Assembly (NCBI GenBank): GCA_943354385.1
Contig: CALRBR010000002.1
Span: forward strand, 4,208-68,207
Reading direction: 5' to 3'
Length of the DNA: 64,000 nt
Source: Candidatus Tayloriibacteriota bacterium
GTDB lineage: Bacteria > Patescibacteriota > Minisyncoccia > Phycocordibacterales > PALSA-1337
This document shows positions 51,044-52,217 of this stretch, in pieces. The notes below the pieces were generated by a model. That model worked only from the letters and a program-made list of their open reading frames with translations. It searched no databases and was not told the DNA's origin. Each line of letters starts with the position of its first letter. Positions within the stretch are counted from its first letter, which is position 1. The position numbers were made by a program, and so were the translations under genes.

Positions 51044-51200
51044 TGTGCGGGTGGAGCGAGCAAAATGCTTTGCTCGCGTGGAGAATCGAACAGCGGAGCC
51101 ATGTTTTTCTACCAAGAAAAACGGTCGAGCTGGTGCCCAGACCGAGGTGAGCGACGGCGAGCCGAGAGTCGCGGGAGATTTTACCGCCCGTTCCAACGTG
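51044..51200 (-). repeat. tRNA-linked element with tRNA-Gly(GCC) 3'-end mimic
   Basis: The minus strand ends ...ctgttcgattctcc-acg-[hairpin cgagcaaagcattttgctcg]-ctccacccgcaca, then shares the bidirectional terminator of tRNA-Gly. Upstream body (gtctgggcaccagctcgaccgtttttcttggtagaaaaa) is ~80% identical to 51975-52040 in inverted orientation. Confidence 0.5.
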
Positions 51201-51471
51201 GTTTTTTATTGAACCCATTTACTCACCCACTCCCCAATCCATGCTATACTTCCCTATGTCCTTTACAGCTTCCCTCCCATACCCTTTCCTTTGTCCCAAG
51301 TCCCCGCCCCACTTATCCCCTAAAAACAAGGATTTTTGGGGAAAACTGTGGATAACTCTGGGGACAGTGTTCATAAAGGACACAGAATATGGCTCATAGT
51401 CGATGGTCAGAATGTCTTTAAAAAGTGTGTTTTGACTAGAATGTGGCCATAAATATAGGTATCTTGATAAA

Positions 51472-51944
51472 ATGCAGACAATTTCACAAGAAACGTTTCA
51501 CGTGAAAACAAAAACGACGTTCCACATGAAACTATTCACATCAAAAACACAGAAATTGGGCGAGCTCGGCGAGGATATTGCCTGTAAGTTTCTCAAAAAA
51601 CAAGGTTTTTCTATCATTGAGCGAAACTATACTAAAAAGTGGGGAGAGATAGATATTGTGGCAAAAGGGAAGGAAAGCTTCATTTTATTGAGGTAAAGAG
51701 TGTTTCTTGTGAAAAAGGTTGGGTAAGTGTTATTCATGAAACATCTGTAATGGGGGATAGCTATCGTCCTGAGGACAATATGCATGGTTTCAAGGTCAAA
51801 AGACTAGCCAAGACCATAGAAGGCTATTTGCTGGAGAAGAATTTGTCCGAAGACATTTCTTGGCAGTTTGATCTAGCTACTGTGTATATTGAAGAAGGGA
51901 CGAAGCAGGGGAGAGTAGAGATGCTGGAGGATGTTATTCTGTAG
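51472..51944 (+). pseudogene. yraN: YraN/UPF0102-family PD-(D/E)xK endonuclease, interrupted by a 1-nt frameshift
   Basis: Two overlapping ORFs (51472-51696 and 51639-51944) together give ...GELGEDIACKFLKKQGFSIIERNYTKKWGEIDIVAKGK/GKLHFIEVKS..., the YraN signature. The frames join across the run aaaagggaaggaaag near 51685 if one base is added. Confidence 0.6.
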
Positions 51945-52217
51945 GGAAGTGTCGCCGGGAGTTTCTCCCCCGACTAAAATCTCGCCGTCGCTCGACTATG
52001 TCTGGGCACCAGCTCACCCATTTTTCTTGTTAGAAAAATTTGTTTCCTCTGTTCGAATCCCGACACAAGCCGTATCTCCAGACAGGTACGCCGGGAATTT
52101 CTCGGCTTACAGCCGCAGTACAGGTTTCCCATTTTTTCGCTTTAGTAAAAGCTCAAAAATATGGGAGAACCTTTTCGAATCCCGGACGAAAGCGCCCCGC
52201 GCTTTTTCGCCCCGACA
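51935..52217 (+). repeat. tRNA-linked element with tRNA-Pro 3'-end mimic
   Basis: Plus-strand element ending ttcgaatcccgg-acg-[hairpin aaagcgccccgcgcttt]-ttcg-ccccgaca, then a bidirectional terminator (52218-52248) shared with the convergent tRNA-Pro. The 5' part is homologous to 51044-51200 inverted. Confidence 0.5.

What the first reader, a model, noticed from the sequence alone, without database searches (positions are those of the whole stretch)
51044..52217. Two homologous ~150-250-nt elements in inverted orientation bracket a frameshifted yraN nuclease gene
Elements at 51044-51200 (minus) and 51935-52217 (plus) share a conserved body (cgccgtcgctc..gtctgggcaccagctc..(c)gtttttcttg(g/t)tagaaaaa..ctgttcga(t/a)tc) and each ends in a tRNA 3'-end mimic. 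They face each other across a ~750-bp segment containing only yraN, whose reading frame is broken. The element downstream of tRNA-Arg (50666-50900) shares a second conserved block with the plus-strand copy (gggaatttctcg...aggtttcc). The arrangement resembles a composite element or a small structured-RNA gene family with tRNA-like ends. Spurious ORFs in the track (50912-51196, 50960-51355, 51931-52371) cover these sequences. I tested RNase P RNA and tmRNA identities against their universal motifs and found no match.
Basis: seen in the sequence. Interest (0 to 1): 0.55.

Follow-up and report, generated by a model that had tools for sequence, protein, structure and literature searches.

The report
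Structured shadow elements behind tRNA genes
Every tRNA gene in this stretch of an ultra-small (CPR/Paceibacteria-type) bacterium is followed by a conserved folded element whose ends copy that tRNA's own acceptor and T stems; this is a widespread family absent from Rfam, and it is not a transposon around yraN.

Summary
All four tRNA genes of the window (Arg, Gly-GCC, Pro, Gly-TCC) are followed by a structured element. On the tRNA's own strand each reads: palindromic spacer; exact complement of tRNA nt 66-73; a 9-bp hairpin; exact complement of nt 54-65; a conserved body; then often a direct repeat of nt ~59-73. A 26-nt body pattern found 34 further copies in Patescibacteria genomes. Partners cover 19 tRNA specificities plus tmRNA. 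Rfam 15, IMG/VR, phage and plasmid collections hold none. Covariation is strong: 97.6% of cells paired and 34 of 37 pairs with double changes in an independent set. Bodies are modular (types A, B, C) and form composites and tandem arrays. No protein gene travels with them. yraN is only a syntenic neighbour, and its frameshift is a 1-nt deletion missing from three of the four sibling assemblies compared. Best reading: read-through tRNA co-transcripts that fold into tRNA-like minihelix RNAs. Their function is unknown.

The parts
50567..50639 (+). tRNA-Arg(TCG), partner of the first element
   Evidence: ARAGORN and Rfam RF00005 at 62.3 bits
50640..50668 (+). Spacer with arms CAAAA/TTTTTG and loop GGAGCGTAGCGAG. 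It has no G+C hairpin, so it is not terminator-like.
   Evidence: Sequence; spacer survey; motif scan
50669..50853 (+). Arg-linked element, body type B. Segments: acc5* 50669-50675; hairpin c' 50677-50698; T5*+rc T loop 50701-50712; body 50713-50783; first degenerate T3'/acc3' 50784-50796; duplicated 3' module ending CCTC-CGGGCGC 50812-50853.
   Evidence: Coordinates; mirror of tRNA-Arg nt 54-73; weak hit of model R1 at 50667-50787(+), 34.3 bits; internal repeat D17
50854..50889 (+). Hairpin plus T-run, terminator-like on the + strand, immediately after the Arg element
   Evidence: scan_promoters_terminators site 50854-50869 with tail TTTCTATTAT
50930..51000 (+). tRNA-Gly(GCC)
   Evidence: ARAGORN; Rfam 70.6 bits
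51001..51046 (.). Palindromic spacer, a bidirectional terminator-like hairpin. It is part of a 33-nt inverted repeat (50987-51019 / 51027-51059) that reaches into the tRNA acceptor strand.
   Evidence: the repeat finder I2, 91% complementary; Rfam miRNA-type hairpin hits
51047..51191 (+). Segments: acc5* 51047-51053; hairpin c' 51056-51077; T5*+rc T loop 51080-51090; body 51091-51184; acc3' 51185-51191.
   Evidence: Model R1 143.5 bits on the + strand. MFE -62 kcal/mol on + versus -51 on -. Structure supported by covariation.
51526..51944 (+). yraN (UPF0102) with a 1-nt deletion near 51662. It is a bystander and not part of the element system.
   Evidence: Intact 139-aa gene with PF02021 in sibling assemblies; indel mapped; homologues only in syntenic loci
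51949..52214 (-). Read on the minus strand: acc5* 52214-52208; c' 52207-52186; T5*+rc T loop 52185-52174; type B body 52173-52096; T3' 52095-52089; second hairpin 52088-52061; type A body 52051-51960; degenerate T3'/acc3' 51959-51949.
   Evidence: Coordinates. R1 hit 51956-52096(-), 111.2 bits. MFE -94.3 kcal/mol on the tRNA-sense strand versus -80.3 on the other. Same composite plan in L045, L039 and L034.
52215..52250 (.). Palindromic spacer / bidirectional terminator between the Pro element and tRNA-Pro
   Evidence: the repeat finder I12; sequence
52251..52324 (-). tRNA-Pro(TGG)
   Evidence: ARAGORN; Rfam 64.6 bits
53165..53236 (+). tRNA-Gly(TCC)
   Evidence: ARAGORN; Rfam 66.2 bits
53237..53286 (.). 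Palindromic spacer / terminator-like hairpin after tRNA-Gly(TCC)
   Evidence: the repeat finder I6, 20-nt arms, 100% complementary
53287..53448 (+). Fourth element, body type C. GCGGGATGGGAGAATCGAA is the complement of tRNA nt 54-72 with no hairpin c'. The body begins CCGGAAAGGGGTCGGGAAAAC. No closing repeat was found.
   Evidence: the repeat finder I8, 95% complementary. The same body start follows tRNA-Pro in L022.
53450..53481 (.). Bidirectional terminator after the type C element, shared with the convergent HU gene
   Evidence: the repeat finder I20, 14-nt arms, 100% complementary

Best explanation
These are members of a large family, absent from Rfam, of tRNA-linked structured elements of Paceibacteria-type CPR bacteria. 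SHOWN: Each element lies directly downstream of a tRNA or tmRNA gene, on the same strand. Its 5' arm is the exact Watson-Crick complement of that tRNA's nt 54-73 and often of its trailer. The arm is interrupted between nt 65|66 by a conserved 9-bp hairpin (loop CUGC). A conserved, covarying body of modular type (A, B, C and others) follows. In about 45% of copies a direct repeat of tRNA nt ~59-73 then closes the element as an acceptor-plus-T-stem minihelix. INFERRED: The element is RNA made as part of the tRNA transcript. This happens always where the spacer has no terminator, and by read-through where it does. When the closing strand is present the RNA has tRNA topology: acceptor stem, one central hairpin in place of the D and anticodon arms, and a T stem whose loop is replaced by the body. 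It could then be cut out by RNase P and RNase Z like a tRNA, with the acceptor/T helix serving as processing and stability scaffold for the body. The 5' arm can alternatively pair with the tRNA's own 3' half; this is the predicted minimum-energy fold of the co-transcript. The element may therefore also act in cis on read-through pre-tRNA. The exact complementarity, even at tRNA G.U sites, suggests that the arm is templated on or corrected against the tRNA 3' end at the DNA level through the palindrome. The cellular role of the bodies is not established.
For: Family and distribution: the 26-nt pattern gave 35 genome hits, 34 of them in Patescibacteria MAGs with several per genome. Position: 93 of 119 scorable metagenomic copies have a tRNA/tmRNA ending a median 46 nt upstream on the same strand, and most of the rest follow another unit. 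Partners span 19 specificities plus tmRNA. Structure: 94.1% of cells paired, 26 of 38 pairs with double changes, 0 of 500 shuffles as good, slid controls 36-46%. In the independent set: 97.6% paired and 34 of 37 pairs with double changes. Strand: G.U 26 versus A.C 7, and G.A 21 versus C.U 6. In the independent set, G.U 22 versus A.C 7 and G.A 22 versus C.U 0. At two covarying pairs the only intermediates are the tRNA-sense wobbles, 13:0. Single-sequence MFE is better on the tRNA-sense strand in 33 of 33 copies, by a mean 8 kcal/mol. Alifold energy is -48.5 versus -35.6 kcal/mol. Within the species, SNPs 51098 and 51125 turn G.U into U.G on that strand. Orientation follows the tRNA even for convergent tRNAs 1.3 kb apart, which argues for transcription rather than replication polarity. 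Co-transcription: a subset of roughly a fifth of spacers, estimated from the 57 non-terminator-like spacers listed, is short with no hairpin or U tract, including the window's tRNA-Arg spacer. Promoter-less tandem units exist (L138 3 x 152 nt, L044, L028). Terminator-like hairpins often follow the last unit. tRNA-like closure: 60 of 122 copies have at least 11 of 12 pairs, versus 12 of 122 shuffled. The predicted fold of the window copy matches this plan. Alternative fold: co-transcript MFE -145.7 kcal/mol, z -11.9, with the tRNA 3' half paired to the 5' arm and c' as a branch. Templating: the arm follows the tRNA 3' strand at 68 G.U/mismatch sites versus 13. It follows T-loop position 59 in 122 of 125 copies versus 49 expected, and the N73 complement in 105 of 125.
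Against: No expression data exist; transcription, processing and RNA stability are inferred. About 57% of spacers look like efficient bidirectional terminators, so most transcripts may stop before the element. The closing strand is degenerate in about half of the copies, including both type A copies of the window. Mismatches between tRNA 3' end and 5' arm show no clear wobble bias (G.U 38 versus A.C 28). For type B the strand is unresolved: wobble counts 10 versus 14 and MFE -82.1 versus -82.9 kcal/mol. On the tRNA-sense strand the T-loop motif is lost. A good sigma-70-like promoter (TTAAGA-18-TATAAT) faces the Arg element on the opposite strand. G.T and G.A mismatches are also tolerated in single-stranded DNA hairpins, so the structure could act as DNA.
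Confidence: 0.45

Rival explanations
1. A non-autonomous selfish DNA element. It folds as single-stranded DNA, or propagates by template switching or tandem amplification. It seeds at the palindromic T-loop/3' end of tRNA and tmRNA genes and is homogenised within genomes. It has no host function.
For: Bodies are 98% identical at the Pro and Lys loci of one genome, and body similarity does not follow tRNA identity. Tandem arrays and partial duplications occur (L138, L028, L044). The 5' arm is an exact DNA-style complement of the tRNA 3' strand, including G.U sites and trailer. Direct repeats of the tRNA 3' end flank the unit as att or target duplications would. The GCGAAGC mini-hairpin motif sits in spacer and body loops. 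tmRNA genes are also targets.
Against: No transposase, integrase or RT gene travels with the elements in 34 loci. None is found in IMG/VR, phage or plasmid collections. Invariant nucleotides plus compensatory changes persist across distant candidate phyla (Taylor-, Nomura-, Vogel-, Lloydbacteria). Orientation follows the tRNA and not a replication direction. A jumping element would carry the old tRNA's arms, yet arms always match the local tRNA.
Confidence: 0.2
2. One reading: an independent small RNA transcribed convergently towards the tRNA. It ends in a copy of the tRNA's T loop, T stem and acceptor 3' strand, and shares the bidirectional terminator.
For: On that strand the 3' end is an exact copy of the tRNA 3' 20 nt with a canonical GTTCGAnTC T loop. 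The spacers are symmetric A-tract/U-tract terminators. A TTAAGA-18-TATAAT promoter-like site lies upstream of the Arg element on that strand. yraN read-through would transcribe that strand of the Pro element.
Against: On that strand, non-canonical cells in covarying helices are A.C and C.U, 26+21 against 7+6. The independent set gives A.C 22 versus G.U 7 on that strand. Folding is worse in 33 of 33 copies. Many elements are enclosed by terminators on both sides with no room for a promoter. Tandem units would produce antisense tRNA transcripts. The inserted hairpin at 65|66 has no counterpart in tRNA topology on that strand.
Confidence: 0.1
3. Scars of site-specific integration at tRNA 3' ends (attL/attR remnants of deleted islands or prophages), or decaying partial tRNA duplications combined with extended terminators, with no structure-dependent role.
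For: Direct repeats of the tRNA 3' end, sometimes including the trailer and terminator (L028 55 nt, L044). tRNA and tmRNA 3' ends are classical integration sites (established knowledge). A tyrosine recombinase gene lies at window ~44350-45267.
Against: Scars would not keep 30 or more invariant positions and 34 of 37 covarying pairs across candidate phyla. There is no integrase next to the elements. The inverted, hairpin-interrupted copy is not a feature of att sites. Similar bodies occur behind 19 different tRNA specificities.
Confidence: 0.07
4. A composite transposon or mobile cassette made of two inverted elements carrying yraN.
For: Two homologous copies in inverted orientation flank yraN in the window.
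Against: In L024 and L019 yraN is present without flanking inverted copies. Each copy is tied to its own tRNA, and the same elements occur at dozens of loci without yraN. The frameshift is a 1-nt deletion absent from sibling assemblies L001, L003 and L004.
Confidence: 0.01

Closest known systems
tRNA-like processing modules cut out by RNase P/RNase Z (MALAT1 mascRNA, plant mitochondrial t-elements, plant tRNA-snoRNA dicistrons)
   Same: A tRNA-like acceptor/T-stem helix sits next to or around another RNA in one precursor. On the tRNA-sense strand the topology is acceptor, central hairpin, T stem, acceptor.
   Different: Here the helix copies the sequence of the neighbouring tRNA at every locus. 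The T loop is replaced by a roughly 60-200-nt conserved body. The D and anticodon arms are reduced to one 9-bp hairpin. Processing has not been shown.
tRNA-like domains of tmRNA and bacterial Y RNA (YrlA)
   Same: Acceptor plus T-arm mimicry without an anticodon; a large non-tRNA domain inserted between the two halves of the tRNA-like part.
   Different: Those are single-copy RNAs with one fixed acceptor identity, a genuine T loop and known protein partners (SmpB, Rsr). These elements are multi-copy with one per tRNA, lack a T loop on the structured strand and gave no Rfam hit.
Direct repeats of tRNA/tmRNA 3' ends made by integrases of genomic islands and prophages (attL/attR)
   Same: A duplicated T-stem/acceptor 3' segment downstream of an intact tRNA or tmRNA gene, sometimes including the trailer.
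   Different: There is no integrase or cargo. An additional exact inverted copy is interrupted by a conserved hairpin. The sequence between the repeats is a covarying structured module only 100-250 nt long.
REP/BIME, MITE and IS200/IS605-derived palindromic elements
   Same: Short, multi-copy, intergenic, hairpin-rich elements, often next to terminators, homogenised within genomes and sometimes in tandem.
   Different: Those have fixed ends and are not tied to one gene class. These have locus-specific arms matching the adjacent tRNA, a fixed orientation relative to it, and deep conservation with compensatory changes across candidate phyla.
Guide/exon-binding pairings of mobile ribozymes and retroelements (group I IGS-P1, group II EBS-IBS, retroviral PBS complementary to a tRNA 3' end)
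   Same: A conserved structured RNA carries a segment complementary to the flanking upstream sequence or to a tRNA 3' end, and that segment differs from locus to locus.
   Different: No group I or II core was detected (Rfam). There is no RT or maturase. The complementarity covers nt 54-73 plus the genomic trailer rather than the CCA end, so it is not derived from mature tRNA.

Membership tests
tRNA (Rfam RF00005 / ARAGORN) | Cloverleaf with D arm, anticodon arm and T loop; Infernal score at least 29 bits | tested here: not met
   Only the four true tRNAs score. No hit over the elements even at E<=10.
tmRNA (including permuted) | tRNA-like domain plus tag reading frame and pseudoknots | tested here: not met
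   ARAGORN finds none in the window. The only hits are sub-threshold tmRNA_permuted hits (25.3 and 15.2 bits versus gathering 47) spanning the tRNA 3' ends and adjacent spacers.
Any Rfam 15 family (RNase P, SRP, 6S, T-box, riboswitches, self-cleaving ribozymes, group I/II introns, ROOL/GOLLD/HEARO) | Covariance-model match at the gathering score | tested here: not met
   Whole window at gathering: tRNAs only. Region 50500-52400 at E<=10: only hairpin-type noise on the terminators.
Intrinsic (bidirectional) terminator | G+C-rich hairpin followed by a U tract (and preceded by an A tract) | tested here: inconclusive
   Met by the spacers after tRNA-Gly(GCC), Pro and Gly(TCC), and by 76 of 133 spacers overall. 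Not met after tRNA-Arg or by the short spacers. It explains the spacer only, not the 100-250-nt body.
Composite transposon / MITE | Fixed terminal inverted repeats, target-site duplication, same cargo bracketed in relatives | tested here: not met
   Ends are locus-specific copies of the neighbouring tRNA. yraN is not bracketed in L019 or L024.
Integrated island/prophage att remnant | Direct repeat of the tRNA 3' end flanking integrase-bearing DNA | tested here: inconclusive
   A direct repeat is present in 62 of 152 copies. No integrase or cargo lies between or beside the repeats.
tRNA-like ncRNA processed by RNase P/Z (mascRNA/t-element type) | Acceptor-type stem stacked on a T-type stem | tested here: inconclusive
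   At least 11 of 12 pairs in 60 of 122 copies versus 12 of 122 shuffled. The stem is degenerate in the two type A copies of the window.
tRNA-like ncRNA processed by RNase P/Z (mascRNA/t-element type) | Cleavage by RNase P at +1 and by RNase Z after the discriminator | not testable with these tools
   Needs in-vitro processing assays or end-mapping RNA-seq.
Retron ncRNA / IS110 bridge RNA / TnpB-IscB omega RNA | Adjacent RT, recombinase or nuclease gene whose non-coding flank encodes the RNA | tested here: not met
   No recurrent neighbouring protein family in 34 loci. Elements sit between tRNAs and ordinary housekeeping genes.
Phage- or plasmid-borne element | Presence in viral or plasmid sequence collections | tested here: not met
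   IMG/VR scans returned only chance matches. blastn against INPHARED and PLSDB found no match.

The most novel reading that the evidence does not exclude
Paceibacteria carry a genome-wide set of cognate 'shadow' RNAs, about one per tRNA and tmRNA gene. The 5' arm of each is an exact antisense of its own tRNA's nt 54-73 plus trailer, and the 3' arm is an exact copy of the same segment. This would be a new class of tRNA-specific riboregulator or tRNA mimic. Possible roles: a cis switch deciding the fate of read-through pre-tRNA; a sequence-specific sensor or trap for the tRNA 3' half; or acceptor/T-stem minihelices recognised like the cognate tRNA by end-processing, charging or EF-Tu-type factors. 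The modular bodies would be effector domains.
Probability: 0.25. Interest if true: 0.9.

Novelty: categorically new. Interest (0 to 1): 0.8.

Why it matters
If these are expressed RNAs, a major bacterial radiation with minimal genomes spends kilobases on structured RNAs physically and sequence-wise coupled to individual tRNAs. I found no described system that does this, either in Rfam 15 or in six full-text literature searches. That would open a testable question about tRNA maturation, quality control or regulation in CPR bacteria. It would also add several new conserved RNA folds (types A, B, C). If they are instead selfish DNA, they are a new kind of repeat whose ends are templated on the tRNA 3' end. 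Practically, they generate spurious ORFs in CPR annotations (50912-51196, 50960-51355 and 51931-52371 here).

Tried and rejected
1) Rfam at gathering and at E<=10 gave nothing beyond tRNAs and terminator hairpins.
2) The 16-mer alone in IMG/VR gave 5 chance hits in coding DNA. The hairpin pattern gave none. The T-loop-side pattern gave 21 chance hits in coding DNA.
3) yraN association: tblastn finds yraN only in three syntenic loci. Rejected.
4) Associated protein: all-against-all clustering of 253 ORFs from 34 loci found only synteny families such as UvrA and RNase Y.
5) Small-peptide reading: the ATG after GGAGCC is not conserved, and hairpin b varies by compensatory changes. Rejected.
6) The 5' arm as a direct copy of the tRNA's own 5' strand (simple tandem tRNA duplication): rejected, 68 versus 13 discriminating sites.
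7) Wobble bias in the tRNA 3' end:5' arm pairing is not significant, 38 versus 28. RNA-level selection on that long hairpin is therefore unproven.
8) T-box-like UGGN, anticodon-like loops and pseudoknots between conserved single strands were considered by eye only. No supporting complementarity was seen and none was tested further.
9) Type B strand assignment by wobble counts was inconclusive.
10) Six literature searches found no description. TIGR-Tas arrays of CPR are unrelated 36-nt units.
11) RNAs upstream of elements lacking a called tRNA (L041, L050, L032, L023) were not identified by Rfam.
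Full report
OBSERVATION. The repeat finder gives inverted arms 51072-51178 / 51964-52070 (107 nt, 78% complementary). The 16-mer GTCTGGGCACCAGCTC occurs only at 51127-51142(-) and 52000-52015(+). A 22-25-nt hairpin is inserted exactly between nt 65 and 66. The sequence after tRNA-Arg shares a second block with the distal half of the Pro-side copy. 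So all four tRNAs of the window have a partner. Rfam 15 finds nothing but the tRNAs.

yraN IS A BYSTANDER. The window matches several metagenome assemblies at 98.6-99.9% identity. In L001, L003 and L004 yraN is an intact 139-aa UPF0102 gene. The window and L002 lack one base near 51662. yraN homologues occur only in three syntenic loci, and there the gene is not bracketed by inverted copies. The two copies face each other only because each follows its own tRNA and the tRNAs converge.

A LARGE FAMILY. The pattern GCTCN6GTCTGGGCACCAGCTC found 35 places in one-genome-per-species contigs. Of these, 34 are true copies, all in Patescibacteria MAGs (Paceibacterota, Taylor-, Nomura-, Vogel- and Lloydbacteria, Minisyncoccia), with up to three per genome. 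Nothing was found in IMG/VR, INPHARED phages or PLSDB plasmids. ARAGORN places a tRNA or tmRNA next to nearly every copy. Among the metagenomic copies, 93 of 119 scorable ones have a tRNA/tmRNA ending a median 46 nt upstream on the same strand, and most others follow another unit. Partners span 19 specificities and tmRNA.

WHICH STRAND. A 33-sequence alignment gives a consensus of four helices with abundant compensatory change. On the opposite, tRNA-sense strand these become G.U and G.A, including a tandem G.A motif in stem a. At two covarying pairs the only intermediates are the tRNA-sense wobbles (13:0). Every one of 33 copies folds better on the tRNA-sense strand, by a mean 8 kcal/mol. This is partly a composition effect. 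The alifold energy is -48.5 versus -35.6 kcal/mol. On that strand 94.1% of cells pair, 26 of 38 pairs change on both sides, no shuffle out of 500 does as well, and slid controls give 36-46%.

A covariance model recovered 43 strong copies from loci chosen only by the hairpin. In these, 97.6% of cells pair and 34 of 37 pairs show double changes, including helices that were invariant in the seed. G.U outnumbers A.C 22 to 7, and G.A outnumbers C.U 22 to 0. That alignment is fitted to the model, so the pairing figures lean towards it. Within the species, SNPs 51098 and 51125 convert a G.U into a U.G on this strand. For type B the wobble test is inconclusive.

ANATOMY ON THE tRNA-SENSE STRAND.
- tRNA.
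- Spacer, median 37 nt, palindromic.
- Complement of N73 and of acceptor 3' strand (acc5*).
- One A.
- Hairpin c': 9 bp, loop CUGC. The gap between acc5* and T5* that holds c' and its linkers is 25 nt in 102 of 121 copies.
- GU.
- Complement of T-stem 3' strand and of the T loop.
- Body.
- GAGAAAUU-like junction.
- T-stem 3' strand, acceptor 3' strand and N73 as a direct repeat of the tRNA, sometimes with trailer and terminator.

This is tRNA topology with the D and anticodon arms reduced to c' and the T loop replaced by the body. The window copy folds exactly so. The type A body is a three-way junction of two arms. The first is CAGC/GCUG, GC/GC and hairpin b. The second is CCC/GGG, GAC/GUC and stem a with the loop GAGCGACGGCGA. 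Type B (AGAC-UUUUCG...CGAAAAGU-ACCUG-small GUA hairpin) and type C (CCGGRARGGGGUCGGGRAAAC...) share the same arms. Composites share one acceptor: the window Pro element is B+A, as in L045, L039 and L034. Tandem arrays occur: L138 has 3 x 152 nt, L028 has 1.33 units, and L044 reads tRNA-A-B.

RELATION TO THE tRNA. At tRNA G.U or mismatch sites the 5' arm follows the complement of the tRNA 3' strand 68 times and the tRNA's own 5' strand 13 times. It tracks T-loop position 59 in 122 of 125 copies (49 expected) and N73 in 105 of 125. The arm is therefore an exact inverted copy of the tRNA 3' end, not a duplicate of its 5' end. The closing direct repeat is intact in only about 45% of copies. Body similarity does not follow tRNA identity. 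In one genome, bodies and c' are about 98% identical at the Pro and Lys loci, while the 12 nt between them are locus-specific. No protein family recurs near the elements.

MECHANISM. What is shown is a deeply conserved single-strand structure on the tRNA-sense strand, fixed behind tRNA and tmRNA genes. I infer that it is RNA made from the tRNA promoter, for four reasons.
- Orientation follows the tRNA even for convergent tRNAs 1.3 kb apart.
- Tandem units have no room for promoters.
- A subset of spacers, roughly a fifth by my reading of the listed sequences and including the one after tRNA-Arg here, has no terminator.
- Terminator-like hairpins often follow the last unit.

Complete copies would be RNase P/RNase Z substrates and would be released as minihelix-scaffolded RNAs. 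In the co-transcript the 5' arm can instead pair with the tRNA's 3' half. This is the predicted minimum-energy fold (-145.7 kcal/mol, z -11.9), so a cis effect on read-through pre-tRNA is possible. The strict Watson-Crick match suggests DNA-level templating or correction through the palindrome. The function of the bodies is unknown.

COUNTER-EVIDENCE. There are no expression data. About 57% of spacers look like good terminators. The closing strand is often degenerate. There is no wobble bias in the tRNA:arm pairing (38 versus 28). A promoter-like site lies on the other strand at the Arg element. G.T and G.A mismatches are also tolerated in single-stranded DNA. The main rival is a selfish, DNA-level repeat seeded at tRNA 3' ends. 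The within-genome homogeneity, arrays and flanking repeats support it. The lack of any enzyme gene, the absence from mobile-element collections, the conservation across candidate phyla and the locally matched arms argue against it.

COMPARISON AND NOVELTY. The nearest analogues are tRNA-like processing modules (mascRNA, plant t-elements), the tRNA-like domains of tmRNA and YrlA, att duplications at tRNA 3' ends, REP/MITE repeats, and the guide pairings of mobile ribozymes. Every defining feature I could test for membership of those families failed or was inconclusive (see table). I found no description in Rfam 15 or in six full-text searches. I therefore rate it as a new kind of element, with its function open.

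Noticed in passing
window 5380, 34361, 48321, 57192 (+); 51347, 46533, 12629, 12610 (-): Eight perfect DnaA-box 9-mers (TTATCCACA) in 64 kb, several as AGTTATCCACAG(G) in intergenic DNA. The copy upstream of yraN (51347-51355) is conserved in L019. It could be a common promoter or regulator site rather than an origin.
   Followed up: no
window 44218(+), 54000(+), 59982(+), 48779(-), 14360(-): A roughly 30-nt repeat, GTCAAGGYCGAYADWGCGAAGCAAC, containing the GCGAAGC mini-hairpin motif, present five times in the window. Its role is unknown.
   Followed up: no
window 46560-47150: About 600 nt with no Pfam-bearing gene. ORF 46626-47081 looks spurious and is called as a domain-less gene in sibling assemblies. 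There is no Rfam hit. The minus strand folds with z = -3.05. This may be another uncatalogued RNA.
   Followed up: partly
window 51052, 51065, 51098, 51125: The Gly(GCC) element of the window differs from sibling assemblies at 3-4 sites within 150 nt, against a background of about 99.8% identity. 51065 A>C restores the consensus CUGC loop. 51098 and 51125 swap G.U for U.G. Possibly conversion from another copy.
   Followed up: partly
window 51494-51535: Two palindromes, GTTTCACGTGAAAC and GTTCCACATGAAAC, immediately upstream of the yraN start codon (51526). They look like operators.
   Followed up: no
window 51200-51340: A strongly pyrimidine-rich (C/T) stretch on the + strand between the Gly element and yraN. 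A similar CCCCACCC-rich stretch follows the Arg-linked element in L019.
   Followed up: no
spacer and body loops, e.g. window 50648-50660; L138 12100-12140; L072, L092, L109, L142: The loop motif GAGCG(A/U)AGCGAG (two AGCGA half-sites, containing GCGAAGC) recurs in spacer loops and type B bodies. It resembles the type A loop GAGCGACGGCGA. Candidate common protein-binding or tertiary-contact site.
   Followed up: partly
L138 11979-12400: Three identical 152-nt type B units in tandem behind one tRNA-Lys, each with its own acceptor/T copies and a GCGAAGC-type spacer.
   Followed up: partly
L027 3860-4458; also L091, L185: Elements paired with tmRNA genes, with arms matching the tmRNA T arm and acceptor.
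   Followed up: partly
L050 1227-1503: A group I intron (RF00028, 58.3 bits) in a Paceibacterota contig with no tRNA called by ARAGORN. Its host gene was not identified.
   Followed up: no
L041 ~3690-4010: About 320 nt upstream of a type A element ends in a T arm and acceptor-like 3' end (GCAGGTTCGAATCCTGCCGCCGGAGCA). Neither ARAGORN nor Rfam calls it. Possibly a divergent tmRNA or an intron-containing tRNA.
   Followed up: partly
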